A program made the translations under genes and the position numbers. This document shows positions 3,055 through 37,300 of a DNA stretch of 64,000 nt, piece by piece; the first letter of the stretch is position 1; each line of letters opens with the position of its first letter. Origin of the DNA: Nitrospina sp. LS_NOB (lineage in GTDB: Bacteria > Nitrospinota > Nitrospinia > Nitrospinales > VA-1); the NCBI GenBank assembly GCA_001542995.1, contig LFLA01000003.1, positions 78,195 to 142,194 on the forward strand, written 5' to 3'. The notes under the pieces were generated by a model. It made no database searches. It saw only the letters and a list, made by a program, of their open reading frames with translations, and was not told the DNA's origin.

Positions 3055-3354
3055 AATAGAACAAATAAAGGAGGTATTTATAAATATCCCAAGTGGGATA
3101 AATTTGTTTTTATTTGTTCTCCCCAATTCTGATTCTAGCCTAAAAGGTAAATCTGTTCCACTTGTCAATTGTGCCAATCGTGTAAATTTTTAAAAGGGTA
3201 GGGATATTGAAGCAGGGAGGTGCGGAAAATCATTGATATTTTGTCAATTATCCGTGTTCATGTAAGTCTTTGGAGTTGGGATTTTTGCACTCATTTGTTG
3301 CAAGAATTTAATTGTTGTCCCCATCTTTGAGTGCCATGAAACTTCTTCCCCTGT

Positions 3355-22386: not shown

Positions 22387-24120
22387 TTATGCGCTAAAAG
22401 ATTTTTGAGCAAGAGCAATATGATCTGCGTTATGGATTTCCAGCCAGCCTTTGTGGATCTCCATATAGTGGACGGCGAAACCCCGATCGATCATTTCCTG
22501 AATGAGGTCGGTGAAATTCAGTTTGGAAATATCCTCTGATTCCTGAAAGCGGCCGGTAAAATTTTTGAGCACATCGTTATAGGTTTCGAGAAACTGCTCG
22601 GCGCCAGTTTTGCTGAACCGGGCAAGACCTATGAACTCGTGGGTTGCGGTTTCCGGGTTTATCTTATTGCCAATCTTTGCCACGGTATTTTCACTGATGA
22701 AGCGGATTTCCCGGCGCGTCGGCTTGTAGCGGTTCCTGGTGATAATGTAGTCGAGAATGTTTCCCTTTTCCGGCTGGTGATACTGGGTTGAATTGTCGGC
22801 AACGAGAACAATGTCTTCCTTGCACTCTGTCAGCTTGCTGAGAATCTGGTCCTCCATGAGGATGTCGGAATACAACATGATGAATCCATTGGTCATTTTT
22901 TCTTTCGCAACGACCAGTGAATTGAGCACGGACCCTTTCTGGTAGTCGGGGTTCTCTAGAATATTGATGCCCTCTGCATGCAGGTGGTCCTTGCCATACC
23001 CTGCGATGAGTGTGATGTCTGCGAGATTGGCGTTACTCAGGGCTTGAATTTGATGGTCGAGAAGGGTCTTGCCGCAAATTTCGAGCATGGCCTTGGGCTT
23101 GCCGTTCAATATTTGCTTGAAAACAGGATCTTCCCCGGCGGCAGGAATAATCACCGGAATATTGGTCGTCTGTTCATCCTGTTGGTCTTTTTCCTTAACG
23201 TCCAGAAACCCGACGGTTTTAAAAATTTCCCGGACGGGTGTGCATAAAGGATCGGCTTCCAGAGATCTCTGATTGCGAAGTAGGGTCTTTGCAGTTTCCG
23301 TCATCGCTTGGTAGGCGCTGCGTAAAAGATGATTGGCATAAATGACGATGCTGAATCCGGCGGCGCTCAGTTCGTCCTCGGTGATTCGGTTATAAGTGGT
23401 GGGCACGCACACCAGTGGTTTGTTCAATTGGAGGTTTTTTAAAATAACCTGGTACTTTTCAGCAAACTCCAGGATTTCATCCGGGCTTTTGGACTTGGAG
23501 TGGATCATGATCCCATCGACTCCAGCTTGCAGGTATTGCGTGGCCCTGTTGAGTGCGTCTTCCATGGGTTTTCCGGATATGAGGCTTTCAATGCGGGCGA
23601 TAATCATAAACTCACTGCTTTTCTGAACACTTTTTCCTCGCCGGATTTTCTGGGCGAAGACTTCCGGTTCTTGCAGGTTTTGCTGGACCCCAGCCTCCAG
23701 GCTATTGCGTTTTGGAAAAACCTTATCTTCTATAATTACCGCAGATACACCCGCCCGCTCAAGTTTGGAGACGGTGTATTCGAAGGAGTTCGCGCCCCCT
23801 CCCGTATCTCCGTCAACGATCATGGGTTTGTCGGTCACAGCAAGAATTTCGTTGATGGTATGGAGCCGGGAGTCGAAGGTAACGACCTCGATATCGGGGT
23901 GGCCTTTCGAGGCCGAGTCGGTGAGACTGCTTTCCCAGATGGCATCGAATTGGCGGACAACGGTTTGTCTATCCGAATCTCCAGTCACTTCAACTGTATT
24001 GGCGATGATGCCGCTCAACCCATTATGAGCTTCAAGCACCCGCACTGTTTTTCCTTCTTCCAGCAGGGCCTTGAGTTTTCCCCGGCGATGTTCGGGAAGA
24101 ATAGTGTTAAGAAGGGTCAT
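22387..24120 (-). CDS. pepM: Phosphoenolpyruvate mutase fused to a C-terminal nucleotidyltransferase domain
   Basis: The N-terminal 300 aa have the ICL/PEPM fold with EDKVFPKRNS (EDKX5NS, aa 131-140). Residues 320-577 are an NTP-transferase fold (IPVIIPAAGE...GKPKAMLEI). Confidence 0.85.
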   Translation of the reverse strand: MTLLNTILPEHRRGKLKALLEEGKTVRVLEAHNGLSGIIANTVEVTGDSDRQTVVRQFDAIWESSLTDSASKGHPDIEVVTFDSRLHTINEILAVTDKPMIVDGDTGGGANSFEYTVSKLERAGVSAVIIEDKVFPKRNSLEAGVQQNLQEPEVFAQKIRRGKSVQKSSEFMIIARIESLISGKPMEDALNRATQYLQAGVDGIMIHSKSKSPDEILEFAEKYQVILKNLQLNKPLVCVPTTYNRITEDELSAAGFSIVIYANHLLRSAYQAMTETAKTLLRNQRSLEADPLCTPVREIFKTVGFLDVKEKDQQDEQTTNIPVIIPAAGEDPVFKQILNGKPKAMLEICGKTLLDHQIQALSNANLADITLIAGYGKDHLHAEGINILENPDYQKGSVLNSLVVAKEKMTNGFIMLYSDILMEDQILSKLTECKEDIVLVADNSTQYHQPEKGNILDYIITRNRYKPTRREIRFISENTVAKIGNKINPETATHEFIGLARFSKTGAEQFLETYNDVLKNFTGRFQESEDISKLNFTDLIQEMIDRGFAVHYMEIHKGWLEIHNADHIALAQKSFSA

Positions 24121-24415: not shown

Positions 24416-25786
24416 TCAGGTAATGATTCGCATAATATCATTATAAAACGCGAACACCATGAGGCTGAGCAACATGAATATCCCAACTTGCTGTGCCCGT
24501 TCCTGGTTTCTTTCACTGACAGGTTTGCCTTTGAGAATTTCTATCAGGAAAAAGAAAATATGGCCGCCATCCAGAACCGGAATTGGCAACAGGTTGAGTA
24601 GCCCCAGGTTGATGCTCAAAAGTGCGGTCAACCGAACCAGCTCACTAAGGCCTTGTTCGGTATATTCCCCGTAAATTTGAAAAATCAGGATAGGGCCGCC
24701 GATGGAGTCTGCGGGGATGGAGCCCATAACCATTTTTTTGATGCTAACAGCGATCAGGTAAATCAGCCGCCTTGTTTCTTCAATGGCCCTTTTAAGGGCT
24801 CCGAAAACGCCGTATCTTTCCGTTGCCATTTCTCCGGCCATGCCGATGCCGAGCAGGCCCACTTCTGCACTTTTGCCTTCAAGGTCTTTGACAACCTTGG
24901 ATTCGGGTGTCAGTGTGGTTACGATTTCTGTTCCGTTTCTGAGGACTCTGAAGGTCAGTTCTTGGCCAGGCTTGTCGATGGCCGCTGTCTTCAGGTCTCC
25001 CCAGCCAAAAATAATAGTATTGTCCACCGAAACCAAAATGTCGCCTTCTTGAATTCCAGCACGGTCAGCCGGGGAGCCTTCTTTAACATGAAACACATTT
25101 CGTACCAGCGGCGTGATTCCGATCAGTCCAACGTTTTCTTTGTCACCAAAAAGATCGCTGATTTCCTCGGAGATGGGGGTGATGGGAACATGGGCGATGC
25201 TTCCGGAGCTTCTTTCCACCTGGAAATCCAGGGAACGGCCTGGAGACTTATGCACAATTTTCTGTAGTTGTTCCCAATAAAGTATTTTTTCATCGCCAAT
25301 GGCTAAAATGCGGTCGCCGGTTTGAAGCCCCGCAACCAGTGCCGGAGACTCATCCTTAACCGTGCCAACAACAGGAGCCAATGCGGGAACCCCTACCAGA
25401 TAGACGCAATAATAAATGGCAATGGCAAAAAGAATATTGAAGAGCGGACCCGCGAAGGCAATGGCCAGCCGGTCCAGAACCGGAGCTGCTGCAAAGGACC
25501 CCTGTTCGTCTGTGGTTTCTTCCCCGACTTCTTCCCCTTTCATTTTTACGTAGCCGCCAAGGGGAATCCAGGCGAGGAGATATTCGGTGCCTCCGCGTGT
25601 GAAGCTCACAATTTTAGGCCCAAAACCGAGGGAAAACTTTTCCACCACGACGCCCACCTTCCGGGCAACGAGAAAATGCCCCAGTTCATGGACGAAGATG
25701 AGAGCGGCCAGGCCACCCAGAAAAGCCAGCATTTTGATCCCGAAACTGAGGATTGCATCTAAAGAAAATATTGAAAGTTCAAACAT
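24416..25786 (-). CDS. rseP: RIP metalloprotease RseP (site-2 protease)
   Basis: HELGHFLVAR (HExxH) in TM1, two PDZ-like segments and a C-terminal NLLPIPVLDGGH motif. Confidence 0.92.
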   Translation of the reverse strand: MFELSIFSLDAILSFGIKMLAFLGGLAALIFVHELGHFLVARKVGVVVEKFSLGFGPKIVSFTRGGTEYLLAWIPLGGYVKMKGEEVGEETTDEQGSFAAAPVLDRLAIAFAGPLFNILFAIAIYYCVYLVGVPALAPVVGTVKDESPALVAGLQTGDRILAIGDEKILYWEQLQKIVHKSPGRSLDFQVERSSGSIAHVPITPISEEISDLFGDKENVGLIGITPLVRNVFHVKEGSPADRAGIQEGDILVSVDNTIIFGWGDLKTAAIDKPGQELTFRVLRNGTEIVTTLTPESKVVKDLEGKSAEVGLLGIGMAGEMATERYGVFGALKRAIEETRRLIYLIAVSIKKMVMGSIPADSIGGPILIFQIYGEYTEQGLSELVRLTALLSINLGLLNLLPIPVLDGGHIFFFLIEILKGKPVSERNQERAQQVGIFMLLSLMVFAFYNDIMRIIT

Positions 25787-25791
25787 GAGAT

Positions 25792-26472
25792 TTAAGGAGT
25801 TTGTGTGTAATCCAAAACCTCCACGCCGGGTGGAGTCTTGAGTTGGAATTGTTCTTCCGGGATTTCCCGGTTAACCCGAATACGGGTGAAGCGAATTTCT
25901 GTTTTGTTCCCTAATTTATCATACACGGTCGATCCGGTGATTTGGAAGTTTTTCTTGTCAGCTAGAAGGACCAGTCTTGCCATCCCCTGCTCCTCGTTTT
26001 TTGGGACAAGGGTGACAACAATATTCTGGCTTTCCTCAATCACACTTTCAACATTAAAGGCATGGGTCAACTTTCCCTTTCCTGCCAGAAAAAGCGCTGG
26101 TGTGTTGGAAGAGTAGATGCTTTCAACCGGTACCTTGGTGGCTTGCTCCTCGTCAGGGACATAAAGCCAAAGGGTTTTCTCATTGCTGATTAAAATTTGT
26201 GTGTCCGGAGCCCCGTAGACCCATCTCATTTTTCCGGGTTTCTTGATTTGCACCGTGCCTTTGACGCTTTGGGTCTGGTCCATCATTTTGATGTAAGACT
26301 GCTGGGTGAAGTCGGCTTCAAAGGTAACAACCTTTTCATATTGGTTTTGAATGGCATCCAGCGCTTTCTGTTTGGAGGTCTCCGCAAAGAGAACCCCCGG
26401 CAGTGTCAGGACTGCGAATAAAGCTAAAAGTTTTTGCAGGAGGTTCAAGAAAGTTTTCTCTCTATTTGTCAT
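25792..26472 (-). CDS. lolA: Outer-membrane lipoprotein carrier LolA-like
   Basis: Signal peptide, then FEADFTQQS...GTVQIKKPGKMRWVY...LWLYVPDEEQ. The start is taken at MTNREK, so it overlaps the purN end by 11 nt. Confidence 0.8.
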   Translation of the reverse strand: MTNREKTFLNLLQKLLALFAVLTLPGVLFAETSKQKALDAIQNQYEKVVTFEADFTQQSYIKMMDQTQSVKGTVQIKKPGKMRWVYGAPDTQILISNEKTLWLYVPDEEQATKVPVESIYSSNTPALFLAGKGKLTHAFNVESVIEESQNIVVTLVPKNEEQGMARLVLLADKKNFQITGSTVYDKLGNKTEIRFTRIRVNREIPEEQFQLKTPPGVEVLDYTQTP

Positions 26473-27079
26473 GCAGGACCCTTCGGCCCGAAAGGGCCAG
26501 CCTGTCTTCAAGGATCAGTCGAATAGCTTCGAGGTAAATAATGTGTTCCTGTTCAAGAATTCTTTCGGAAAGGGAAGCCTCATCGTCATCATCAATAATG
26601 GGAACCACCGCTTGCAAAATGATAGGGCCGCCATCCACTTCCTCGTTGACATAATGCACCGTGCATCCTGAAAACCGGGCTCCATGCTCCAAGGCTCGTT
26701 TTTGCACGTTTAATCCGGGAAACGCGGGAAGTAACGAGGGGTGAATATTAATGATTCGACCTGAAAAAGTTTCGATAAAATGTTTGCCCAGAACACGCAT
26801 GTAGCCGGCGAGACAAATCAGATTAACGGATTTGGATTGGATTTGTTCTACCAGGCCCTGCTCGTAGCTGTTTCGGTCCGGAAAAGATTTAGGGTCCAGA
26901 AAAAGTCCCTCAAGACCATGCTTGCGTGCTCGTTCAAGAGCGTAGGCATCTTTCACATTACTAATCACTATGGCAATTTCGGCCTGCAGGTCATTTTTTT
27001 CAATACTGTCGATGATGGCCTGCAGGTTAGAACCTCGTCCTGAAACCAAAACGGCGAGTTTAAATTTGTCGGGTGCCAT
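26462..27079 (-). CDS. purN: Phosphoribosylglycinamide formyltransferase
   Basis: KLAVLVSGRGSNLQAII...NIHPSLLPAFPG...GCTVHYV are present. Confidence 0.93.
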   Translation of the reverse strand: MAPDKFKLAVLVSGRGSNLQAIIDSIEKNDLQAEIAIVISNVKDAYALERARKHGLEGLFLDPKSFPDRNSYEQGLVEQIQSKSVNLICLAGYMRVLGKHFIETFSGRIINIHPSLLPAFPGLNVQKRALEHGARFSGCTVHYVNEEVDGGPIILQAVVPIIDDDDEASLSERILEQEHIIYLEAIRLILEDRLALSGRRVLHDK

Positions 27080-27340
27080 TTAAAGGGGTTGTAAAGGTTT
27101 GTTGGGGACGGGTGATAACACCTGTTGAGCTTATCATTAAATGGTGTTTTAAATCAATGATTTCGATAATCAATGGAGAAGTGTAGGGGATTGAATTCTA
27201 TCTCATCCGTTTTGTGCGCGGGAGCCCCGAGAAGAAAGATAGATTTTGCCTCAAAACAGAAAAAAAATTTATTTTCCGGGAATAACTCGATGGCAAAGGT
27301 GATCTAACATTACGGAATTCACATCCCACCCCTTTTTGCG

Positions 27341-27386
27341 ATCCGTCCGCCTGTTCTACCTCCCTGGCGGGCGGATTTCTTTTTCC
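27341..27386 (+). terminator. Orphan terminator-like hairpin in the purN-ankyrin spacer
   Basis: ATCCGTCCGCC, a 14-nt loop, GGCGGGCGGAT, then ttctttttcc. No annotated plus-strand gene lies upstream. Confidence 0.4.
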
Positions 27387-27567
27387 TCCGGTATCTCTTC
27401 CATTTTGCTAATTATAAAATCGTGAATGTTGAGCCTTTTATTGGAAATACTTCCACTGTTTTAACACGTTGGTGATGTTTTTTCTTGAAGAAATAGTTTG
27501 TTTGCCCTGTGGATACTTTATTTGTCTAATGGGTATCCGGTAGAAATTTGTGCTACTTTTGCAAGTC

Positions 27568-28597
27568 ATGAAAAACTTTCCTTTGCCCAGACAGCTTCCC
27601 TTCATCCTTTGGATTTTTTTAACAGGAGGGGTGGGGTCTGCATTTGCGGATGTGGACGAAGCATTTTTGCAATCTGTTCTTGAGGGAGACCGTAAAGAGG
27701 CGGAGTCTCTGCTTGAACGGGGTGCCGATATTGAAACCCGTACTAAAAGAGGCAGCACGGCTTTGATCGTTGCTGCGGCCCAAAAGCATACTTCCCTGCT
27801 GGAGTTTTTGTTAAAGCGGGGTGCCAATGTCAACGCCCGGAACCGCTATGATGACACCGCTTTATTATTATGTGCAATGGTAGGTGATGTGAAGTGTATG
27901 GAATTGGTCATCGCCAAGGGAGGTGATGTCAACGTAAAGAATATGCTTGGCTGGAGTCCCCTTTCGAGAGCCGCGAGATATGGTCACCTATCGGCACTTA
28001 GATTCCTGATCAAGCGGGGTGCTAAGATCGATATTCGTTTGAACGATGGCGCAATCCCGCTAATCATTTCCGTGGGAGAACAACATTCCGGAGCAATTCA
28101 TTTATTGTTAGAAAATGGGGCAACGTCTCTTATGATGGCGGCCGAGCGAGGCAGAATGGAAATGGTCCGGCTTTTGATCGAACATAGGGTGGACATTAAT
28201 GCTAAAAGCCGAAATGGCGCTACTCCATTAATTAGCGCATCCGCTGGTGGGCATGAAGAAATCGTAAAACTTCTTCTCCAGCAAGGGGCGAAACAGGATG
28301 CCGCGATTGCCAATGGTTCAACATCTTTAATGGTTGCGACCGAACGGGGTCATTTGCCTACCGTTGAGGTCCTGCTACGTCATGGCGCAAATATCCAGGC
28401 ACGCAGTAAAAGAGGGTGGCAGCCTTTATGGTTGCTGCGGCAGGGGGGGGCACACAAAAATTATCCGGCTTTTTCTGGAGAAGGGGGCAAGCACAAAGCC
28501 GGTGACTAAAAGCGGGTGGACCGCACTCAAGGTTGCGCTTCAATTAGACAGGCATGCAGTGGTTCGGCAACTTAAACTGGCGGGAGCCAAAGAATAA
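27568..28597 (+). pseudogene. Secreted ankyrin-repeat protein, reading frame broken near the 3' end
   Basis: A signal peptide (MKNFPL...GSAFA) is followed by about 8 ANK repeats. Repeat homology moves from frame 1 to frame 3 (VAAFMVAAAGGG) at GGG 28414-16, then to frame 2 (GHTKIIRLFLEKGA...) at the G8 run 28443-50. Confidence 0.75.
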
Positions 28598-28619
28598 ATG
28601 AGGTTCGGCTGCGCAGAAG

Positions 28620-30815
28620 TCAGTTTTTCTGAAGCAGGTTTTCCTGGATGTTTTGAAGAAGGCCTATATTCTGGGTGTGTCCTGATCTGTAGGCTTTGAC
28701 GTGCCCCCGTATGGGTTTTCCCAGTAAATAAAAATCCCCGAGTATATCCAGAATTTTATGTCGGGGGAACTCATCTTTAAAGCGGAGTTTGGTGTTCAAG
28801 ACTTTTTTGTCGCCAAGCAATATAAAGTTGTCAAGTTTGCCTCCAGACGCATAACCCATTTTGGTCAATTGCGCCACCTCTTCCATGAAGCCGAAGGTTC
28901 TTGCCGGGGCAATCTCCTTTTTAAAACTTTCACCTCCTTTGAACTCATATGTGTAGTCCTGAATGCCAATTGGTTCCGGATATTCCATGTGGTAACTGAC
29001 GCTAAAGTTATCGCTGGGTTCGATGGAAATATACGGCTCACCTTGCTCCTTGTTGCCAAAAGTGTAGCTTTTATCGATCACGATTTCTTCATAAAAACCA
29101 TCTTGGTCTTCGAACTCTCCATCTTCTATAAGGTCACAAAAATCTTTTGCGGAACCATCCATCACCGGTGCTTCATCGCCGATTTTAATGAGCAGGTTGG
29201 TGATCCGGTACATGTGAAGAGCCGCCATAATATGTTCAATGGTTCCGACCGAGACCCTGTCTTTACGTAAGCGGGTGGCATAATCTGTGGACTGGACATT
29301 TTCCAGCCGGGCGGGAATGGTTTTGCCGGTGGAAATATCCCCAAATATGATTCCGCTTCCCGGAGGCATGGGTTGCAGAATCAATCCTGTTTTAATACCC
29401 GAATGTAAACCGCTTCCGCATAACACCACACTGCGCTTGAGGGTGCGCTGTTGGTGGCGGTATCCACTATTGATTTTTTCTGGATCTGGTATTTCAATGG
29501 AATGGAGCACAATTTTTTCTTTAAGTTGTTTTTTTTCTGTGCTCAGAGATTTGCAGGTTTTTTTGATGTCCCAGTTGTTGCGCTTAAGGTGGTGAATAAT
29601 GAAATGCTTTTCCCAAATCAGTTCTGCTTCCTGAAGAGACCCGGCCTGATCAATATCGTTAATTTCTATTTTGGGTTGCCAGATTTCCGAAGGCAGATCC
29701 TGGGCAGTTATTTTTTTCTGGTTAGCGCCGATAAGAATCAATTTATTCAGCACAGATATCAACTCTTTCACATTTTCGGGCCAGGTATAACGGCATAGAG
29801 CGGCCAGGGCGTCCTCGCCTATTTCAGGGATGGAAGTTTTCTGTGTTTGCCGGATTTCATCCAGATAATCTTTTGCCATAGCGGGGATATTCACGGCATA
29901 GTTGCGCAAAGGCGGAACAAATAAAGTGGAGTCTTTGAACGCGTTCAGTAATGCAGGATGAAACTGGCCTTTTGCGGACAGGGCTGCCAAATCTTTAGTG
30001 GATGACGCAAAAATCCGGATGGGTATCAATCCTGAATGGGAGCCCGCCGATTGCGAACCGTTGGAGTGCAGGGCTTCCGCGAGTTTTTCCTGCAGGCCTT
30101 TGCTCAATGATTCAATATTGCTGAGATAGATTACTTTTTCCTCGCCAGCCTGGTTGGAAGCACGGGTATTTTTCCGGGGTCGCTTAAAAAGTTGGGAGTG
30201 AATGGCCCGTTCCTGGCGAAACGAGCAATTTATTTTAACGAAGGAACGGTCGCTTTTACTGCTCTGCCCATGGATGGCCTGGGCGATGAACTCTTTGCCG
30301 GTCCCATTCTCGCCACGCACTAAAACCGGTTTCATATGCCGCGAAAACTCTTTCACCGCCTTTTTCACTTCCACCATGGACTCAAAACAAAGAGGGAGTT
30401 CCCCTCTGGAGGAAGGCGTCAGTTTTTCCTCAGCCTTGAATTTCGAGCGTTTGTTGCCCAACACTTCTGCAATCGATTGGGTGATCCGGTCCAGGGAAAA
30501 AGGTTTTTCTATAAAGTCCTGAGCCCCGAGTTTGGTTGCCTTGACCGCCGTGTCAATGGTTCCGTGGCCGGACATAATCAGGACTTCAATTTCAGGGTGA
30601 TAAGATTTTACCGTTTTTAAAACTTCAATTCCGTCCATCCCCGGCAACCAGATATCCAGTAAAACCAGGTCGGGGGGGTCTGCTTGGATAATTTCCAATG
30701 CTTCAATGCCATCCCCTGTCTCGGCGACTTCATAACCTTCATCTGCGAGAATTCCGGTCAAGGAACTGACAATATTTTTTTCGTCATCGACGATGAGAAT
30801 ACGTGCTTTAGGCAA
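28620..30815 (-). CDS. lpxC: Fusion protein: receiver domain + degenerate NtrC-type AAA+ domain + Fis-like HTH remnant + UDP-3-O-acyl-GlcNAc deacetylase (LpxC)
   Basis: Continuous 731-aa ORF. REC has DD10-11, D54 and K104. Walker A GENGTGKE is kept but GAFTGA and Walker B are lost. The LpxC part runs from QRTLK (aa 456) and has E527/H528, T640, H686/K687/D690 and H713. Confidence 0.85.
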   Translation of the reverse strand: MPKARILIVDDEKNIVSSLTGILADEGYEVAETGDGIEALEIIQADPPDLVLLDIWLPGMDGIEVLKTVKSYHPEIEVLIMSGHGTIDTAVKATKLGAQDFIEKPFSLDRITQSIAEVLGNKRSKFKAEEKLTPSSRGELPLCFESMVEVKKAVKEFSRHMKPVLVRGENGTGKEFIAQAIHGQSSKSDRSFVKINCSFRQERAIHSQLFKRPRKNTRASNQAGEEKVIYLSNIESLSKGLQEKLAEALHSNGSQSAGSHSGLIPIRIFASSTKDLAALSAKGQFHPALLNAFKDSTLFVPPLRNYAVNIPAMAKDYLDEIRQTQKTSIPEIGEDALAALCRYTWPENVKELISVLNKLILIGANQKKITAQDLPSEIWQPKIEINDIDQAGSLQEAELIWEKHFIIHHLKRNNWDIKKTCKSLSTEKKQLKEKIVLHSIEIPDPEKINSGYRHQQRTLKRSVVLCGSGLHSGIKTGLILQPMPPGSGIIFGDISTGKTIPARLENVQSTDYATRLRKDRVSVGTIEHIMAALHMYRITNLLIKIGDEAPVMDGSAKDFCDLIEDGEFEDQDGFYEEIVIDKSYTFGNKEQGEPYISIEPSDNFSVSYHMEYPEPIGIQDYTYEFKGGESFKKEIAPARTFGFMEEVAQLTKMGYASGGKLDNFILLGDKKVLNTKLRFKDEFPRHKILDILGDFYLLGKPIRGHVKAYRSGHTQNIGLLQNIQENLLQKN

Positions 30816-30841
30816 AATGGTCGCCTTTCGTGATGCAGGTC

Positions 30842-31486
30842 TTAGGTCGCGGGTGTGGCAATGCCTAGCCGTGAATATTCGAGGTAATAAATTTTATGAC
30901 CCGCATTGATAAAGTTTTTTTCATATTTGGTTTTGGGCAAGTCTGTGCGGCTCTCAAGAAAGCCTGACCCATGGTCCTGATTTTGAAACTGGGGTTCAGA
31001 GTTAAAGTATTCCAGCATTTCAATGGCGTAGGGTTCGCTATCGGTCGCCAGGTAAACTTGCCCCTCGGGAGCTAATTTTTGCCCAATTAGTTTAACAAAA
31101 TCGGGCTTGATCAACCTTCTTTTAATATGCCTTTTTTTGGGCCAGGGATCGGGGAAGTTGATATATGCGGTTTCCAGCTCCCCATCCTTGAACAAGTGAG
31201 GAATCTTAAAACGCACATCTCCATAGGCCACCCGGATATTTTCCAACTGCAGTTTTTTTATCCGTGTCATTAATTTCCGAATTCCCTTATGGTAGAAATC
31301 CATGCCGATGAAATTGGTCCGGGGTTCCTGGGCGGCCATTTCAATAAGGAAATTTCCCATTCCAAAGCCGATCTCCAGTTTTAGTGGTTGACGGTTCCCG
31401 AATTGGGCTTGCCAATCGGGCCACTCGTCAATATCAAGGAAATAAGAATCTTCTTCTTCAATTTTAGCAAAAGATATAAGGGCCAT
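30842..31486 (-). CDS. trmB: tRNA (guanine-N7)-methyltransferase
   Basis: EIGFGMGNF is the SAM-binding motif, and FPDPWPKKRHIKRRL is the TrmB signature. Confidence 0.9.
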   Translation of the reverse strand: MALISFAKIEEEDSYFLDIDEWPDWQAQFGNRQPLKLEIGFGMGNFLIEMAAQEPRTNFIGMDFYHKGIRKLMTRIKKLQLENIRVAYGDVRFKIPHLFKDGELETAYINFPDPWPKKRHIKRRLIKPDFVKLIGQKLAPEGQVYLATDSEPYAIEMLEYFNSEPQFQNQDHGSGFLESRTDLPKTKYEKNFINAGHKIYYLEYSRLGIATPAT

Positions 31487-31977
31487 TAAGTAGATGCAGA
31501 GTCGCCGGGGTTGTCATGAATAGTGATCACTTCTAAAACTTCAAATTCCATTTTACCGTCAGGTAGTGAAACGCTGATTTCATCGCCTTTCTGTTTACCG
31601 ACCATGGCTCTTCCAACCGGTGAGGCGGTGGAAATTTTTCCCTCATCAGGGTTGACTTCCTCCGGGAAAACCAAATGGTACTGGGTCTCTTTACCGCTAT
31701 CCATATCTTTCAACTTCAAAGTGCTTCCAAGGCCGGAACGGTCTTTCGGAATCTGGTTGACGTTGATGGCCATGATGTCACTGATGCGTTTTTGCAAAAG
31801 GGAAATGCGGGATTCCAAAAACATCTGTCGTTCCTTCGCCGCTTTAAATTCCGCGTTTTCGCTCAGGTCTCCATGTTCCCGAGCTGTTAAAATGGCTTTG
31901 GGAATGTCCACCTGAAGTTCTCTTTGTGATACTTCTAAATCCTTATCCAACTTGTCCAAAATGGGAAGCCGCTTCAT
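31486..31977 (-). CDS. greA: Transcription elongation factor GreA family
   Basis: Coiled-coil tip GDLSENAEFKAAKE with a C-terminal globular domain (SPVGRAMVGKQKGDEI). It overlaps the trmB start by 1 nt. Confidence 0.85.
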   Translation of the reverse strand: MKRLPILDKLDKDLEVSQRELQVDIPKAILTAREHGDLSENAEFKAAKERQMFLESRISLLQKRISDIMAINVNQIPKDRSGLGSTLKLKDMDSGKETQYHLVFPEEVNPDEGKISTASPVGRAMVGKQKGDEISVSLPDGKMEFEVLEVITIHDNPGDSAST

Positions 31978-32444
31978 TGCGAATTCATCTCCATGATTTA
32001 AAAAATGGTTAAATTCGGTTTATTGCCCAGGCAAATGGAGGATGATGTCCATCGACCTGCATTTCTAAGAGCTAAAACCAGAAGTCATGCATGGCTAGGG
32101 TTGGATAATCTGTAACTCGAGGAAACCAGTTGAAAATTTCTAAGGGGTTTAAATGTTATGCCTTACACGTTCTCTAGTGTGCCATTGTAGGGGGTGAATC
32201 ACTACCGGGTCAACAAAAATTTGTGGTACATAAGTCCCGGCTGGGTCGAGCCCCCCCACCCCGCAAGAAGGCTATAAAGGCTTGATGAATAAGGGAATAA
32301 GTGGATAATGCTTGATATTGGTCAAATCAGGCAATTTAGCGTTGCGGGTTTATTGTGACGAGGGTTCCAAAAACAACTTGGATGTGGCTCCGTGAAAGAA
32401 AAACTCTTGAAATTGCTGGAAACCAAAGGTGACCTCCCTCCTTC

Positions 32445-33248
32445 ATGTCCGACATTCTCCTTAATTTTGGAAGCCGGATCAATAATCCCGAAACCGATAT
32501 TGAAGAAATATCGGACCTGATCCAAACGGAACCTGTCCTGTCAGGACGCTTGATCAAACTTTCCAATAGTGTGCTTTTTGGCGGTGGACGTGATGAGGTT
32601 CTGGACTTGAACTCAGCTATTATGCGGCTGGGACTCAAAATGGTTCTCGATTTGGCCTACACTCTTGAACTACCCAGCGCATTTAAAAAACCCAAGTCTT
32701 TCAGCCATATGGAACTCTGGAAACATTCTCTGGGCGTGGCTTATTTATCCAGAGCCCTTGTTTTGCATGCGGGAGGGAGTAAGGAAGAATTGGAGATCAG
32801 CTATCCCTCTGGTTTGATGCACGATGTGGGAATTCTGGTTTTCGATTATTTGAGCCCTGTTGAATATGAAAAATTTATAAAAAACATGGGTGACACAGAA
32901 AAAGGCTTGGATGAATTGGAGTTAGAGACCTTTGGCATTTCCCATCCTGAACTGGGAGCCCGGTTTGTTGAAAAATGGTGGCCCGTTTCAAAACAAGTTG
33001 TGTCGTCGCTCAGGAAGCACCACGGTCCCTTATCAGGCAGCATGAACTCTCCTGGAATTCCCCGATTCATAACTTGTGCCAACCAGATTGCCAATAACCA
33101 CGAGATTCGCAATGGGATTTCTCCCTATATTTCCCCAATGGGCACTAATTTAATGAAAATATTGAAACTAACCGATGAGAGCCTGGGTGGTTTTGTGGAA
33201 AACACCCGTGAAGGGGTGGCAGAGGCTGAGTCGATTCTGATGGGATAA
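32445..33248 (+). CDS. HDOD domain protein (N-terminus possibly displaced into another frame)
   Basis: EEISDLIQTEPVLSGRLIKLSNSVLFG...GLMHDVGILVF. A further 18 HDOD-like codons (VKEKLLKLLETKGDLPP) lie in frame 1 from GTG 32392. Confidence 0.8.
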   Translation: MSDILLNFGSRINNPETDIEEISDLIQTEPVLSGRLIKLSNSVLFGGGRDEVLDLNSAIMRLGLKMVLDLAYTLELPSAFKKPKSFSHMELWKHSLGVAYLSRALVLHAGGSKEELEISYPSGLMHDVGILVFDYLSPVEYEKFIKNMGDTEKGLDELELETFGISHPELGARFVEKWWPVSKQVVSSLRKHHGPLSGSMNSPGIPRFITCANQIANNHEIRNGISPYISPMGTNLMKILKLTDESLGGFVENTREGVAEAESILMG

Positions 33249-33350: not shown

Positions 33351-34352
33351 ATGGCAGAAAACTTGTTTAAAGTTAAATTCCATGGTGTTAGAGGGTCGAT
33401 TCCAAGTCCTCTGGTGAATGCAGAGGTCGAAGAGAAGTTGGTACGGGCTTTTCAGGAGGCCAAGCCTGAAAACCTGACCGATGAGGACTCTATTAAATCG
33501 TTCGTGCAGGGCTTGCCCCATGAAATCCGTGGTACGTTTGGTGGCAACTCTTCCTGTGTATCCATGCAAGTGGGTGACGAATGGTTGATCTTTGATGCCG
33601 GGTCCGGAATTCGGATGCTGGGGCAGGATCTGATGGCGACCGAGTTTGGCCGTGGACAGGGAAAGGCCAGCCTTTTCTTTTCACATACCCATTGGGATCA
33701 TATTCTGGGGATCCCATTTTTTGTCCCTTTCTACATCAATGGCAACAAGTTTACCGTTCATAGTCCGCTACCGGATATCAAGGAACGGCTGGAGGGCCAA
33801 CAAAAATTCGAATACTTTCCCATCCCCTTCAGCATTTATGCCTCGGACATAGATTTTGTCGTTCTGGAAAACAAGACCGAACAAAAAATCGGCGACTTGA
33901 CGGTCACTTGGAAATCGATGTATCACCCAGGTCAATGTTTTGCTTACCGGGTGGACTATAAAGGCAAGTCAGTCGTTTACGCCACCGATGTGGAATATAA
34001 AAAACTGGGTTCTTCAGATTTAAAACCTGCGGTTGAGTTTTTCCGCGATGCCGACTTGCTGATCTTTGATTCCATGTACACCTTCAGCGAAGGCCTCGAA
34101 AAAGAAGATTGGGGGCATAGCTCCACGTTCATTGGCGTTGATCTGGCCGTAGAAGCTAATGTGAAGCAGATCGCTTTCTTTCATCATGAACCCACCTACA
34201 GCGATTTCAAACTGATGGACATTTTCCGTCAGACAGAAAAATACCTCAAACTCGTCGCTCCCAAGAACGATCTAAAAATGTTCCTGTCCTACGAAGGCCT
34301 TTCGGTAGACCTCCTCACAGACTGCTCACTAAGCCGACATGGCGGATCCTGA
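33351..34352 (+). CDS. MBL-fold metallo-hydrolase
   Basis: FHGVRGSIPSP...SHTHWDHILGIPFF...FFHHEP. Its 3' end overlaps the next gene by 14 nt. Confidence 0.75.
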   Translation: MAENLFKVKFHGVRGSIPSPLVNAEVEEKLVRAFQEAKPENLTDEDSIKSFVQGLPHEIRGTFGGNSSCVSMQVGDEWLIFDAGSGIRMLGQDLMATEFGRGQGKASLFFSHTHWDHILGIPFFVPFYINGNKFTVHSPLPDIKERLEGQQKFEYFPIPFSIYASDIDFVVLENKTEQKIGDLTVTWKSMYHPGQCFAYRVDYKGKSVVYATDVEYKKLGSSDLKPAVEFFRDADLLIFDSMYTFSEGLEKEDWGHSSTFIGVDLAVEANVKQIAFFHHEPTYSDFKLMDIFRQTEKYLKLVAPKNDLKMFLSYEGLSVDLLTDCSLSRHGGS

Positions 34353-37300
34353 AAAGTTCAGGTTTTCCATTGACCGGGGTGGAACGTTTACAGATATTTA
34401 CGCCGAAACGCCTAAAGGCCCAAGAGTTCTTAAGCTCCTTTCAGAAAATCCGGACCATTATTCCGACGCGCCGCTTGAGGGCATTCAAAGAATCCTCCGT
34501 GAAGTGAAGGGAACCGGAGAGATCGACCCCGGTTGCATTGAGTGGGTTCGTATGGGGACCACTATTGCCACCAACGCGCTTCTGGAAAGAAAAGGTGCCC
34601 GTACCGCCCTCATCATCACAAAAGGATTTGGCGATTTACTGCGCATTGGAAAACAAAACCGGCCGCAGATTTTTGATCTGAAAATTACTAAGACCCAACC
34701 GCTTTATGAAACGGTGGTGGAAATTGATGAGCGTGTCCACCCGGTTCAGCAGCCTGCGAATTCTCAACAATCCGGGGTGGAAATTTTGCGATCCCCAAAT
34801 CGAGAAATCGTACGCCAACAACTTCAGGGATTGCGTGAGCAGGGCATTGAAAGCCTTGCCATTGCCCTTATGCATGCTTGTATTTTTCCAGATCACGAGC
34901 AATGGGTTGCTGAGGAAGCTGTAAAAATCGGGTTTCAAAATATTTCCCTTTCCAGTGTGGTCATGCCCAGGTCCAGGCTGGTGGACCGGGGCCACACCAC
35001 CTGCCTCGATGCTACCCTGAACCCGCATATCCAAAATTATTTGAAAAAATTTCGAGCCGGACTGGGTGAATGCGACCTGTTCCTCCTGCAATCAGATGGG
35101 GGACTTGTGGATGCCGACTCTTTTACCGGGAGCCGTGCCATTCTTTCCGGTCCGGCGGGCGGAGTGGTGGGCTATGCCCGGACAACGAAAAATGTGCCGG
35201 TGATTGGGTTTGATATGGGAGGCACCTCCACCGATGTGTCCAGGTTTGACGGCAACTATGAATGGCAGTTTGAAAGCGAGGCGCAAGGCATTCCCAACCT
35301 TGTCCCTCAATTAAACATCCACACCGTGGCGGCGGGAGGTGGCTCCAGATTGTTGTTTGAAAACGGCATGTTTCAGGTTGGCCCGTTGTCTTCGGGGGCT
35401 TGGCCTGGTCCCGCCTGTTATAGAAACGGAGGTCCACTCTCTCTGACCGATGCCAACCTGGTTTTAGGAAGGCTCGTTCCAGAACACTTTCCCAGTGTGT
35501 TTGGGAAAAATGAAGACCAGCCTTTATCGATCCTTGCGTCCAGGAAAGTTTTTGAGGAATTAATGGAGCGCATTCATTTCTTAACTGGCAAGAAACGATC
35601 AATGGAAGAAGTCGCCTATGGCTTTATAGAAGTTGCCAATGAAAACATGGCTCGGGCCATTCATGAAATCACTGCCTCACGGGGATACGATGCTCGCGAT
35701 CATGTCCTATCTTGCTTTGGAGGAGCTGGAGGCCAGCATGCCTGCGCCATCGCCCGGACTCTTGGCATCTCCCGGATTTTCATCAGCCGTTTTGCCGGGG
35801 TGCTCTCGGCTTATGGAATGGGACTGGCCGATATCACCGTTGATAAAGAGGAACCGGTAATCCACGAAACCCAGGCCGGGTTGGAGCAAAAGCTCCAGGC
35901 TCTGGCAGATAAAGCAGTCGCCGAGCTCAAGCAGAAAGGGAGTTTTTCCATCAACGTCCAACGCTATTTGAATATGCGTTATGAAGGTTCTGATACGACC
36001 TTGATGGTGAGGGAGTCGAACGAGGAAAACTTTGCGGAATCGTTCAGCAAAATGCACCAGCAGGAGTTTGGTTTTAATCCATCGAATCGTAAAATCCGGG
36101 TGGAGGCGATCCGGGTTCGGGCAGAAGGGAAATCCCCGCCACCTGTCCAAACGCCACTTGCCAGAAAACAGTCCCCACTGAATCCTATCATGCAAAAGGA
36201 TTGCTACTTCACCGAAGGCTGGCAGGAGACCCCCGTCTACGCTTTGGATTCGATCGGTGCGGGTCAGTCCCTGGAAGGCCCGGCGATTCTCATTCAGGAC
36301 ACTTCAACCATTCTGATAGGGCCTTCCTGTAAAGCTACCGTTACAAATTACGGCGATGTCGAAATAGAAGTGCAAACCCAGTCGGCACGTCCGGTTGGGA
36401 CGGAACTCGATGCGGTGCAATTGTCGCTGTTTGGGTCGCGGTTTATGTCCATTGCAGAGCAAATGGGCCGCGTCCTGCAACGCACCGCTGTTTCCACAAA
36501 CATTAAAGAACGATTGGATTTTTCCTGCGCCATCTTCGGTCCGGAGGGAGATCTCGTGGCCAACGCCCCGCACCAGCCGGTTCATCTTGGTTCGATGGGC
36601 GAAGCGGTGCGACATCAGATCAGGTTAAACGGTCCTCCGATTACCGAGGGCGAAGTCTGGGTCACCAACCATCCTGCGACAGGAGGAAGCCACCTGCCGG
36701 ATATCACGGTCATCACTCCGGTTGTGAAAGAAGGGAAGCTGATCTTCTTTGTCGCCAGCCGTGGCCACCACGCTGATATCGGTGGCAGTACCCCCGGCTC
36801 CATGCCGCCATTTTCCAGATCGCTGGATGAAGAGGGTGCCAGCATTAAAAGCTTCAAGCTGGTGGAGAACGGAGAGTTCCAGGAAAAAGGAATTACCGGG
36901 ATATTGACCAGGGCGGGAACCCGGGCTCTAGCCGATAACCTGTCGGACCTGAAAGCACAGGTGTCCGCCAACCAACAGGGCATTGCCCTGTTGAACGAAC
37001 TGGTTGAAGTGCATTCACTAAAAGTAGTGCAGGCTTATATGAAACATCTGCGCGACAACGCCGGGCAATCGGTGCGCGCTCTTCTAAAAAAGGTCGCCGG
37101 AAAAAAAGAAAAACACGTTCACCTGCAGGCGGAAGATTTTATGGATGAAGGAAGCCGCATTGCTTTAACCATTAATATTGACACCGTTGTCGGGTCGGCG
37201 TGCTTTGATTTCACCGGTACTTCAAAAGAACTGCCGAATAATTTAAACACCCCGTGCGCGGTGACGTTGTCCGCCATTCTCTATTGCCTGCGTTGTCTGA

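What the first reader, a model, noticed from the sequence alone, without database searches (positions are those of the whole stretch)
28620..30815. Receiver domain, ATPase-dead NtrC scaffold and a complete LpxC fused in one 731-aa ORF
Seen in sequence:
- The ORF is uninterrupted.
- aa 1-120 are a receiver domain with D10-D11, phospho-acceptor D54 (LLDIWLPG), MSGHGT and K104 (EKPF).
- aa ~145-365 align with a sigma54-activator AAA+ domain. Walker A GENGTGKE is kept. The GAFTGA region reads KRPRKNTRASNQ, Walker B reads IYLSNI (DE lost), FReDL reads FHPAL, and WPGNVREL reads WPENVKEL.
- aa ~395-440 are a weak Fis-type HTH.
- aa 456-731 are a full LpxC beginning at its normal QRTLK N-terminus. It has E527-H528 (TIEHIMAAL), T640 (ARTFGF), H686-K687-xx-D690 (RHKILDILGD) and H713 (SGHTQN), so all zinc ligands and the acid/base residues are present.

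Established knowledge: LpxC catalyses the committed step of lipid A synthesis. In enterobacteria it is controlled by FtsH/LapB proteolysis. The LpxC fusion I know of is to FabZ.

Inference: a sigma54-blind, hydrolysis-dead NtrC scaffold may have been co-opted as a phosphorylation-driven oligomerisation switch for LpxC. That would be direct two-component control of outer-membrane biogenesis. No kinase gene is adjacent. greA-trmB lie directly upstream on the same strand. I am not aware of this architecture being described.
Basis: partly seen in the sequence, partly recalled or inferred. Interest (0 to 1): 0.85.

Follow-up and report, generated by a model that had tools for sequence, protein, structure and literature searches.

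The report
Response regulator fused to LpxC
A real, widely conserved gene fuses the phosphorylation-receiver end of an NtrX-type signalling protein to LpxC, the enzyme that commits cells to making lipid A, and in related bacteria its sensor kinase gene sits right next to it, so outer-membrane lipid synthesis is probably switched directly by a two-component signal.

Summary
The 731-aa ORF is real. It lies on the minus strand at 28620-30815. Pfam finds REC, a sigma54-type AAA+ domain, an AAA lid and a full LpxC. The first 435 aa align end to end with Brucella NtrX. The AAA+ domain is catalytically dead across the family: the Walker B Glu and both Arg fingers are lost, and there is no GAFTGA. All LpxC zinc and catalytic residues are present, and D54 is invariant.

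The fusion is not an artefact. The best 120 homologues (62-95% identity, Nitrospinota) have the same architecture, and long fusions continue down to 38% identity.

New findings:
- In Tectomicrobia-type and other Nitrospinota contigs, an NtrY-type kinase gene lies 33-85 bp upstream of the fusion.
- A second class, REC-short linker-LpxC (about 420-470 aa), occupies the same mutS...lolA-rseP locus. At least one member is a clean in-frame deletion of AAA+-lid-HTH.
- Two forms that lost the acceptor Asp also lost the adjacent kinase.

LpxC is therefore the output domain of an NtrY-type two-component system, and the dead AAA+ module is dispensable. Direct two-component control is supported by inference only. 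I found no literature on this architecture. Whether a second lpxC exists in these genomes was not tested.

The parts
28620..30815 (-). Whole fusion gene, 731 aa: REC - dead AAA+ - lid - HTH remnant - LpxC. TTG start at 30815, stop codon at 28620-28622.
30471..30800 (-). Receiver (REC) domain, aa 6-115. D10, D11, acceptor D54 (codon 30654-30656), S82 and K104 are all invariant or nearly invariant in the family.
30381..30470 (-). REC-to-AAA+ linker, aa 116-145. Poorly conserved; AF2 gives low confidence for 125-138.
29907..30380 (-). Sigma54-type AAA+ core, aa 146-303, catalytically dead. Walker A G168-E175 is kept. Walker B reads YLSN. The GAFTGA loop is replaced by KRPRKNTRASNQ. The Arg fingers are lost (FHPALLNAF).
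29673..29891 (-). AAA+ lid domain, aa 309-381. Sensor II Arg is replaced by Lys (WPENVKEL).
29505..29636 (-). Degenerate Fis/NtrX-type HTH remnant, aa 394-437, predicted as three helices.
   Evidence: (no HTH_8 hit)
29451..29504 (-). Variable, predicted-disordered junction, aa 438-455, between the HTH remnant and LpxC.
28644..29450 (-). Complete LpxC domain, aa 456-724. Zinc ligands H528, H686 and D690; catalytic E527 and H713; also T640, K687 and D694.
30842..31977 (-). greA (31486-31977) and trmB (30842-31486), directly upstream on the same strand. A 26-nt gap separates trmB from the fusion, so this is a likely operon.
24416..27079 (-). purN (26462-27079), lolA (25792-26511) and rseP (24416-25786), downstream on the same strand. 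The fusion-lolA-rseP linkage is conserved in Nitrospinota and Tectomicrobia-type loci, for both long and short forms.

Best explanation
The gene encodes the response regulator of an NtrY-type two-component system, and its output domain is the enzyme LpxC.

Origin. It arose when an NtrX-type regulator (REC - GAFTGA-less AAA+ - HTH) fused in frame to the lpxC gene downstream. Since then the REC and LpxC ends have been kept under strong constraint. The AAA+/lid/HTH middle has lost ATP hydrolysis and probably DNA binding. It survives in this lineage as an NtrX-like scaffold or spacer, possibly still binding nucleotide.

Proposed mechanism (inferred, not shown). Phosphorylation of D54 by an NtrY-type kinase changes how REC packs or dimerises. 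This opens or blocks the tethered LpxC, as in CheB-type receiver-enzyme regulators. [quoted passage not shown]

In this genome the kinase gene is not adjacent. A rearrangement has put greA-trmB upstream of the fusion.
For: Shown:
(1) Architecture and intact catalytic and phospho-acceptor residues.
(2) The fusion is conserved in all 120 best hits at 62-95% identity (Nitrospinota) and in long forms down to 38% identity.
(3) Per-domain constraint across 121 sequences, given as mean identity to the query and share of columns >=95% conserved: REC 84% and 62%; LpxC 87% and 67%; AAA+ 60% and 25%; lid 59% and 15%; HTH 60% and 2%.
(4) The Walker B Glu and both Arg fingers are absent in every fusion examined. 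The Walker A Lys or the HTH is also lost in some.
(5) An NtrY-type kinase (NtrY_N-HAMP-PAS-HisKA-HATPase) is encoded 33-85 bp upstream of long fusions (L008/L009; L010). In L012 its ORF overlaps the fusion's start. One also lies 35 bp upstream of a short REC-LpxC and directly upstream of another (L004). DUF4390, the usual third gene of ntrYX loci, lies 5' of it (PMC13001219).
(6) Short REC-LpxC proteins (Pfam finds only REC and LpxC) sit in the same mutS...lolA-rseP slot. One is a clean in-frame deletion of AAA+-lid-HTH from a long form. In both domains its nearest relatives are long forms. The REC-to-LpxC spacer is bimodal: 22-116 aa or 255-356 aa.
(7) The two acceptor-substituted forms whose loci were examined (D->N in P0143, D->E in P0400) have no kinase at the locus. 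The Asp-retaining short form P0296 has one.
(8) The AF2 model of a short form has pTM 0.85 despite a disordered linker, consistent with a defined REC/LpxC arrangement.

From literature:
- Deleting ntrYX in Rhodobacter sphaeroides raises lpxC mRNA 8.8-fold and raises LPS (PMC7240162).
- The Desulfovibrio vulgaris regulator DVU2934 has lpxC as its single target (PMC3333781).
Against: - No experiment bears on whether D54 phosphorylation changes LpxC activity.
- No kinase gene is adjacent in this window or in the 64%-identical Nitrospinaceae locus. None of the top-120 NtrY homologues shares a contig length with the megabase Nitrospinaceae contigs (2.3-3.3 Mb).
- The AF2 model of the full-length protein is poor (pTM 0.39), so the inter-domain geometry of the long form is unknown.
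- The interface in the short-form model could not be inspected.
- Walker A is invariant in Nitrospinaceae, so the AAA+ domain may still have a role there.
- Whether these genomes carry a second, free-standing lpxC was not tested.
Confidence: 0.6

Rival explanations
1. REC phosphorylation controls LpxC turnover rather than catalysis. The receiver, with or without the dead AAA+ module, exposes or hides a degron or docks a protease, as an in-cis version of the proteolytic control of LpxC known in proteobacteria.
For: LpxC is controlled mainly by proteolysis in E. coli, by FtsH (established knowledge; cited in PMC6339880 and PMC5007114). In both Spirochaetota-type loci examined, a gene for a LON_substr_bdg-domain protein lies immediately upstream of REC-LpxC. 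The junction and linkers are predicted to be disordered.
Against: The fusion ends only 7 residues after the LpxC domain, so it lacks a long C-terminal tail like the E. coli degron. The LON_substr_bdg adjacency is absent from the Nitrospinota and Tectomicrobia-type loci. There are no direct data.
Confidence: 0.2
2. In the long forms the dead AAA+ ring-former is the working part. Phosphorylation drives AAA+-mediated oligomerisation, with ATP binding but no hydrolysis, and oligomerisation switches LpxC.
For: Walker A (G168, E169, G171, G173, K174) is invariant in 57 Nitrospinaceae sequences, as are several lid residues (W345, P346, N348, E351, L352). The AAA+ and lid folds are predicted with good confidence. 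NtrC-family receivers are known to control AAA+ assembly (established knowledge).
Against: The AAA+ module has been deleted cleanly in related lineages that keep REC, LpxC, the locus and the kinase. It is the fast-evolving part of the protein. Some long forms have lost the Walker A Lys (P0134 and P0138). The closest solved relative over the N-terminal 435 aa is NtrX rather than a GAFTGA-bearing NtrC.
Confidence: 0.15
3. The protein is bifunctional with no coupling between its halves. The N-terminal part still works as an NtrX-like sigma70-type transcription factor, and LpxC is fused only for co-expression or co-localisation.
For: Some distant long forms still give an HTH_8 hit (P0125 and P0128; L012). 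GAFTGA-less bEBPs regulate sigma70 promoters without ATP hydrolysis (bioRxiv 10.1101/2023.06.06.543975). NtrX binds envelope-gene promoters (PMC7240162).
Against: The window protein has no HTH_8 hit. Only 2% of HTH columns are conserved, and 7 of 121 family members lack the segment. Many long forms and all short forms have lost the HTH while keeping REC-LpxC.
Confidence: 0.12
4. The LpxC domain is a non-catalytic ligand sensor (pseudoenzyme), or the ORF is an assembly or annotation artefact joining two genes.
For: None beyond the unusual architecture. Whether a second lpxC exists in these genomes was not tested.
Against: All zinc ligands and catalytic residues are invariant. The TIGR00325 score is above its cut-off. 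The modelled fold matches A. aeolicus LpxC with TM 0.94. The junction is read through in all 120 best homologues and in further long forms from independent assemblies, including contigs of 2.3-3.3 Mb.
Confidence: 0.02

Closest known systems
NtrX of the NtrY/NtrX two-component system (e.g. Brucella abortus NtrX, PDB 5m7n)
   Same: Same order REC - AAA+ without GAFTGA - lid - C-terminal HTH. Residues 4-435 align end to end with NtrX 4-449. NtrX is the best NCBIfam model. NtrY-type kinase and DUF4390 genes lie upstream in relatives. NtrYX affects the cell envelope and lpxC/LPS levels in R. sphaeroides (PMC7240162).
   Different: NtrX keeps the Walker B DE, FREDLxxRL and a recognisable HTH, and it ends after the HTH. 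Here those motifs are lost and a complete LpxC follows. The score of 257 bits is far below the NtrX cut-off of 600.
CheB-type response regulators with enzymatic output (REC - linker - enzyme)
   Same: A receiver domain tethered by a flexible linker to a hydrolase. The short family members have exactly this layout. This is the proposed working analogy.
   Different: The output domain is unrelated (LpxC rather than a methylesterase). The long forms carry an extra vestigial AAA+/HTH module. Regulation of the enzyme by REC is not demonstrated here.
Stand-alone LpxC (E. coli, P. aeruginosa, A. aeolicus) and the LpxC-FabZ fusion (NCBIfam PRK13188)
   Same: Full-length LpxC fold with all catalytic and zinc residues. 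The LpxC-FabZ fusion shows that LpxC tolerates fusion partners.
   Different: The known regulation is proteolytic (FtsH/LapB in enterobacteria) or transcriptional. No receiver domain is present in those proteins. There is no FabZ domain here.
GAFTGA-less bEBP-like regulators (VpsR, R. capsulatus and Caulobacter NtrC)
   Same: A sigma54-type AAA+ domain that no longer contacts sigma54 (bioRxiv 10.1101/2023.06.06.543975; PMC6158489).
   Different: Those proteins remain DNA-binding transcription factors. Here the HTH is degenerate and the C-terminus is an enzyme.
Transcriptional two-component control of lpxC (D. vulgaris DVU2934 -> lpxC)
   Same: A two-component system dedicated to lpxC (PMC3333781).
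   Different: That system acts on the lpxC promoter. Here the regulator and the enzyme are one polypeptide.

Membership tests
Response regulator receiver domain (PF00072) | Acidic pocket (DD), phospho-acceptor Asp, conserved Ser/Thr and Lys | tested here: met
   D10, D11, D54, S82 and K104 are present. Pfam E 3e-32. They are invariant or nearly invariant in the family.
Sigma54-dependent bEBP (NtrC family) | GAFTGA loop for sigma54 contact | tested here: not met
   The loop is replaced by KRPRKNTRASNQ. The region is variable and rich in indels across the family.
Sigma54-dependent bEBP (NtrC family) | Catalytic AAA+ motifs: Walker A, Walker B DE, Arg fingers (FREDLxxRL), sensor II Arg | tested here: not met
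   Walker A is kept (GENGTGKE). Walker B reads YLSN. Both Arg are lost (FHPALLNAF). Sensor II is R->K. No fusion examined has the Walker B Glu or the Arg fingers.
Sigma54-dependent bEBP (NtrC family) | C-terminal Fis-type HTH (PF02954) | tested here: inconclusive
   No HTH_8 hit at E<=1. The segment aligns with the NtrX HTH and is predicted as three helices. It is detectable in some distant long forms.
NtrX (NCBIfam NF051870, equivalog) | Score above the curated cut-off, meaning a full-length equivalog | tested here: not met
   257.3 bits against a cut-off of 600. It is the best-matching model and aligns over 5-435, so the relation is ancestry, not equivalence.
NtrX (NtrY/NtrX system) | Encoded next to an NtrY-type kinase (NtrY_N-HAMP-PAS-HisKA-HATPase) | tested here: not met
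   Not met in this window. The only kinase is a 320-aa HisKA+HATPase protein 22 kb away. The feature is met in relatives L008/L009, L010, L012, the contig and L004.
LpxC (TIGR00325 / PF03331) | Full-length domain scoring above the curated cut-off | tested here: met
   TIGR00325 scores 238.6 bits against a cut-off of 187.25. PF03331 covers 1-267 of 268, E 1.8e-81.
LpxC (TIGR00325 / PF03331) | Zinc ligands (His, His, Asp) and catalytic Glu/His, plus Thr and Lys | tested here: met
   H528, H686, D690; E527, H713; T640, K687. They align with the P. aeruginosa residues and are invariant in the family.
LpxC (TIGR00325 / PF03331) | UDP-3-O-acyl-GlcNAc deacetylase activity, and being the cell's only LpxC | not testable with these tools
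   This needs an enzyme assay and a whole-genome PF03331 count. No second LpxC was found among the window ORFs scanned, which were the 10 around the fusion and all ORFs of at least 300 aa.
Bifunctional LpxC/FabZ (NCBIfam PRK13188) | C-terminal FabZ hot-dog domain | tested here: not met
   Only the LpxC half matches, at 204 bits against a cut-off of 465. The ORF ends 7 residues after the LpxC domain.

The most novel reading that the evidence does not exclude
[quoted passage not shown] This would be a post-translational, two-component route of LPS control, found in Nitrospinota, Tectomicrobia-type lineages and some Spirochaetota-type and other lineages. The fusion would also act as a 'Rosetta stone'. 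It would show that the poorly understood link between NtrYX and the cell envelope, lpxC and LPS in alphaproteobacteria reflects an ancient functional pairing of NtrX with LpxC.
Probability: 0.45. Interest if true: 0.85.

Novelty: new variant of a known kind. Interest (0 to 1): 0.75.

Why it matters
LpxC sets the rate of lipid A synthesis and is a major antibiotic target. The controls described for it are proteolysis (FtsH/LapB in enterobacteria) and transcription. A receiver domain fused to LpxC, encoded in an operon with a sensor kinase, would be a third and much more direct kind of control.

The family offers a natural series of constructs for testing this: long forms, short forms, forms that keep the acceptor Asp and forms that have lost it. 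It also gives a concrete hypothesis for why NtrYX mutants in alphaproteobacteria have altered lpxC expression, LPS content and envelope properties. Finally, it is a clear case of an AAA+ enhancer-binding module decaying into a spacer and then being deleted.

Nitrospinota are the main marine nitrite oxidisers, so how they regulate their envelope has ecological interest.

Tried and rejected
- Reference-genome census with an alignment of short forms. Only L011 and L012 were fusions. There is therefore no usable taxonomic census and no test for a second lpxC.
- AF2 model of the full-length window protein. pTM was 0.39 and the LpxC half was poorly modelled with a 57-sequence alignment at 62-95% identity. 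It cannot be used for inter-domain geometry.
- Foldseek of the short-form model against the PDB. It recovers only LpxC; none of the 50 listed matches spans both domains.
- Promoter and terminator scan of 27000-32600. Counts equal the shuffled expectation, so it is uninformative.
- Nitrospina gracilis genome paper, main text and supplement. It says nothing on lpxC, NtrX/NtrY, two-component systems or LPS.
- Literature searches for REC-LpxC, LpxC domain architecture and Nitrospina lpxC. None describes the fusion.
- 'Stand-alone' LpxC proteins nearest to the fused domain. P0163 comes from a 902-bp contig and is probably truncated. P0168 is really a frameshifted REC-LpxC lying behind a kinase. They are not evidence for free-standing paralogues.
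- NJ tree of LpxC domains. It has no support values, so I used it only qualitatively. Pairwise identities and the deletion alignment carry the argument instead.
- Matching contig lengths to find an NtrY orthologue in the large Nitrospinaceae contigs. No match was found, which is inconclusive.
Full report
**1. The observation**

The ORF exists exactly at 28620-30815, but on the minus strand. It is 731 aa, starts with TTG and is uninterrupted. The plus strand is full of stops.

Pfam finds four domains:
- REC at 6-115 (E 3e-32)
- Sigma54_activat at 146-290 (6e-21)
- AAA_lid_14 at 309-381 (8e-13)
- a complete LpxC at 456-724, covering profile positions 1-267 of 268 (1.8e-81)

No HTH_8 hit appears even at E<=1. 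In NCBIfam, TIGR00325 (lpxC) scores 238.6 bits, above its cut-off of 187. The best N-terminal model is NtrX, matching residues 5-435 at 257 bits, well below the equivalog cut-off of 600. Among solved structures, residues 4-435 align end to end with full-length Brucella NtrX (5m7n, residues 4-449).

- AAA+ domain: Walker A GENGTGKE is kept. Walker B reads YLSNI where NtrX has YLDEV. FREDLxxRL has become FHPALLNAF, so both arginines are gone. WPGNVREL has become WPENVKEL. The GAFTGA loop is replaced.
- LpxC domain: E527/H528, T640, H686/K687/D690/D694 and H713 align with P. aeruginosa E77/H78, T190, H237/K238/D241/D245 and H264.

**2. Not an artefact and not a one-off**

All 120 best database hits (62-95% identity, about 670-750 aa) carry REC + Sigma54_activat + lid + LpxC. 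They come from many independent assemblies, including contigs of 2.3-3.3 Mb. Those with names are Nitrospinae, Nitrospinaceae, Nitrospina or Nitromaritima. They are annotated simply as LpxC, and occasionally as NtrX.

An exhaustive search of 1.84 billion cluster representatives finds long fusions down to 38% identity (Pfam check).

**3. Which parts are under selection**

Across 121 Nitrospinaceae-level sequences:

| Segment | Mean identity to the query | Columns >=95% conserved |
|---|---|---|
| REC | 84% | 62% |
| AAA+ core | 60% | 25% |
| Lid | 59% | 15% |
| HTH remnant | 60% | 2% |
| LpxC | 87% | 67% |

Family-wide motif states are as follows:
- The REC motifs are essentially invariant: IVDDEK, LLDIWLPGM, SGHGT, EKPF.
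- Walker A GxxGTGKE is kept.
- Walker B is YLSN or FLDN, and the catalytic Glu is always Asn.
- The Arg-finger region reads FH(P/Q)xLL or FNTDLL.
- 7 of 121 sequences lack the HTH segment altogether.

In the more distant long fusions, the Walker B Glu and the Arg fingers are again absent in every case. Two have also lost the Walker A Lys, and six have lost the HTH.

But the dead module is the fast-evolving part of the protein.

**4. A second, shorter class**

The representative search also returned many proteins of 419-483 aa in which Pfam finds only REC and LpxC.

It is 22-116 aa in 122 proteins and 255-356 aa in 166, with nothing in between.

The named members are:
- Candidatus Entotheonellaceae, Tectomicrobia or Tectimicrobiota, with long and short forms side by side
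- a Spirochaetota bacterium (BBM88387.1)
- a 'Deltaproteobacteria bacterium' with a 1.09 Mb chromosome (L011)

The nearest relative of short forms P0296 and P0297, in both LpxC (84-87% identity) and REC (84-87%), is the long form P0298.

The alignment of P0296 with P0298 shows a clean in-frame excision. The two are collinear up to the residue before the AAA+ domain begins ('...SQQQTH(V/A)L | LIGDSPQ...'). Collinearity resumes inside the last HTH helix ('...AAYNLQSAAL...QQKQRTLRRS'). P0297 has different breakpoints.

So the AAA+-lid-HTH module has been deleted, probably more than once, while REC and LpxC were kept.

**5. Genomic context and the kinase**

In this window the order on the minus strand is greA - trmB - (26 nt) - fusion, then purN - lolA - rseP - a 94-aa ORF - a PEP-mutase/nucleotidyltransferase fusion - proS - rimP - nusA - infB. 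An ankyrin-repeat gene lies on the other strand between the fusion and purN. Apart from the ankyrin gene, the same order is seen in a 64%-identical Nitrospinaceae homologue (L001). Neither locus has an adjacent kinase. The window's only kinase is a 320-aa HisKA+HATPase protein 22 kb away.

Relatives give a different picture.

| Locus | Gene order |
|---|---|
| L008/L009 (long form, 44% identity, HTH_8 still detectable) | glnD-phoH-ybeY-mutS-[750-aa HAMP-PAS-HisKA-HATPase kinase]-33 bp-[fusion]-lolA-rseP |
| L010 ('Nitrospinae bacterium' MAG) | DUF4390-[NtrY_N-HAMP-PAS-HisKA-HATPase]-85 bp-[long fusion] |
| L012 | DUF4390-NtrY-[long fusion], with overlapping ORFs |
| 37-kb JGI contig | mutS-NtrY-35 bp-[short REC-LpxC, 453 aa]-lolA-rseP-rimP-nusA |
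| L004 (frameshifted high-GC contig) | NtrY-like kinase directly followed by REC-short linker-LpxC |
| L005 and L093 (short forms) | same mutS...lolA-rseP slot, no kinase |
| L091 and L092 (Nitrospinota MAG contigs) | ybeY-mutS-DUF4390-NtrY |

The ancestral locus is therefore most simply mutS-(DUF4390)-ntrY-[ntrX::lpxC]-lolA-rseP. In Nitrospinaceae a rearrangement has separated the fusion-lolA-rseP half from the kinase half.

DUF4390 5' of ntrYX homologues matches the gene-cluster layout described for NtrYX-family loci (PMC13001219).

**6. The acceptor Asp tracks the kinase**

In 46 diverse short forms the acceptor is Asp in 41, Glu in 4 and Asn in 1. Two of the substituted forms had their loci examined: P0143 (D->N) and P0400 (D->E). 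Neither locus has a kinase. P0296, which keeps Asp, has NtrY adjacent.

This sample is small. It is nonetheless what one expects if the receiver is a real NtrY substrate wherever the kinase is present. In the Nitrospinaceae family D54 is invariant, which argues that a phosphodonor still exists in the source organism.

**7. Structure predictions**

The full-length model is poor (mean pLDDT 67.6, pTM 0.39). It gives only the REC and AAA+ folds, three helices at 394-437, and a disordered stretch beginning at 439, with low confidence continuing into the LpxC domain.

A short form modelled with a deeper alignment does much better (mean pLDDT 85.1, pTM 0.85), and only the 129-155 linker is disordered. 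LpxC makes up only about 64% of that chain. A pTM this high therefore suggests a defined REC/LpxC arrangement, but I could not inspect the interface.

Foldseek confirms a canonical LpxC fold (TM 0.94 to A. aeolicus LpxC, rmsd 1.9 A). None of the 50 listed matches aligns over more than about 285 columns, so none spans both domains.

**8. Mechanism**

Shown:
- The protein has NtrX ancestry.
- The AAA+ domain is dead.
- REC and LpxC are intact and strongly constrained.
- An NtrY-type kinase is operonic with the fusion in relatives.
- The middle module is dispensable.

Inferred: phosphorylation of D54 alters REC packing or dimerisation and thereby LpxC output, by analogy with CheB-like receiver-enzyme regulators. 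The direction of regulation is unknown.

Rivals:
- REC-controlled proteolysis of LpxC. Hints are the proteolytic control known in proteobacteria, and a LON_substr_bdg gene upstream in both Spirochaetota-type loci.
It remains possible within Nitrospinaceae, where Walker A is invariant. It cannot be the core mechanism of the family.
- An uncoupled bifunctional transcription factor plus enzyme. The decay and loss of the HTH argue against it.
- A pseudoenzyme or an artefact. Both are effectively excluded.

**9. Comparison with what is known**

The N-terminal 435 aa descend from NtrX but fail the NtrX equivalog cut-off, and they fail the defining catalytic and sigma54-contact features of bEBPs. The C-terminal domain passes every LpxC test available here.

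Two-component influence on lpxC is known at the transcript level:
- Deleting ntrYX in R. sphaeroides raises lpxC mRNA 8.8-fold and raises LPS. No NtrX site was found at lpxC, and the authors call the effect indirect (PMC7240162).
- D. vulgaris DVU2934 has lpxC as its single target (PMC3333781).

The fusion puts the same pairing into one polypeptide, which is a classic Rosetta-stone argument for a functional link between NtrX and LpxC.

I found no paper that describes a REC-LpxC or NtrX-LpxC protein. This search covers only the open-access library available here.

**10. Limits**

- I did not determine whether fusion-bearing genomes also have a free-standing lpxC.
- I did not determine whether Nitrospinaceae genomes encode an NtrY orthologue elsewhere.
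- The reference-genome census failed.
- No biochemical inference is tested.

**11. Verdict**

This is a new variant of a known kind: a response regulator with an enzymatic output, here the committed enzyme of lipid A synthesis. It is widespread in databases but apparently undescribed. Interest is 0.75.

Noticed in passing
window 27550-28509 (+): A 319-aa ankyrin-repeat protein gene lies between the fusion and purN on the opposite strand. It is absent from the otherwise syntenic Nitrospinaceae locus L001, so it looks like a lineage-specific insertion.
   Followed up: partly
window 22387-24120 (-): A 577-aa fusion of PEP mutase with a MobA-like/IspD-like nucleotidyltransferase (phosphonate biosynthesis plus nucleotidyl activation). 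It sits next to rseP-lolA and is conserved in L001, suggesting phosphonate decoration of a cell-surface molecule.
   Followed up: no
L002 9015-9812 and L007 6948-7940: In both Spirochaetota-type loci, a gene for a LON_substr_bdg-domain protein lies immediately upstream of the short REC-LpxC gene, in the order L31 - LON_substr_bdg - REC-LpxC - SMC_N. This may hint at a protease link.
   Followed up: no
proteins P0143, P0361, P0391, P0400, P0402; loci L005 and L093: In some short REC-LpxC proteins the phospho-acceptor Asp is replaced by Asn (P0143) or Glu (the other four). The two loci examined have lost the adjacent NtrY kinase. These may be pseudo-receivers locked in one state.
   Followed up: partly
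L089 2330-5583, L090 2885-5927, L067 3175-5909: Other phyla have a two-component system directly upstream of a stand-alone lpxC. In Nitrospirota it is a HisKA_3 kinase with an N-terminal Rossmann-like domain plus a NarL-type regulator. In an uncultured deltaproteobacterium it is a REC-PAS-LuxR regulator.
   Followed up: partly
L092 2311-2694: A LapA_dom (LPS assembly protein A domain) gene lies just upstream of mutS-DUF4390-NtrY in a Nitrospinota MAG contig. A REC-encoding gene begins at the contig end after an EamA gene.
   Followed up: no
window 2203-3177 (-) and 32445-33248 (+): The window holds two HDOD-domain (HD-related signalling) proteins, one of them just beyond greA. A small cytoplasmic histidine kinase is at 5687-6649 (+).
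   Followed up: no
window 34339-37977 (+): A 1212-aa single-polypeptide hydantoinase/oxoprolinase (A and B subunits fused). It is conserved next to a beta-lactamase-fold gene in L001.
   Followed up: no
L004 4300-6900: This high-GC ENA contig has several frameshifts that split one kinase gene and one REC-LpxC gene into fragments. As a result the database lists a 'stand-alone' 292-aa LpxC (P0168) that is really part of a fusion.
   Followed up: yes
window 51908-52831 (-): A 307-aa ORF with no Pfam match at E<=1e-4, adjacent to an ABC_ATPase/MRB1590-type P-loop protein gene.
   Followed up: no
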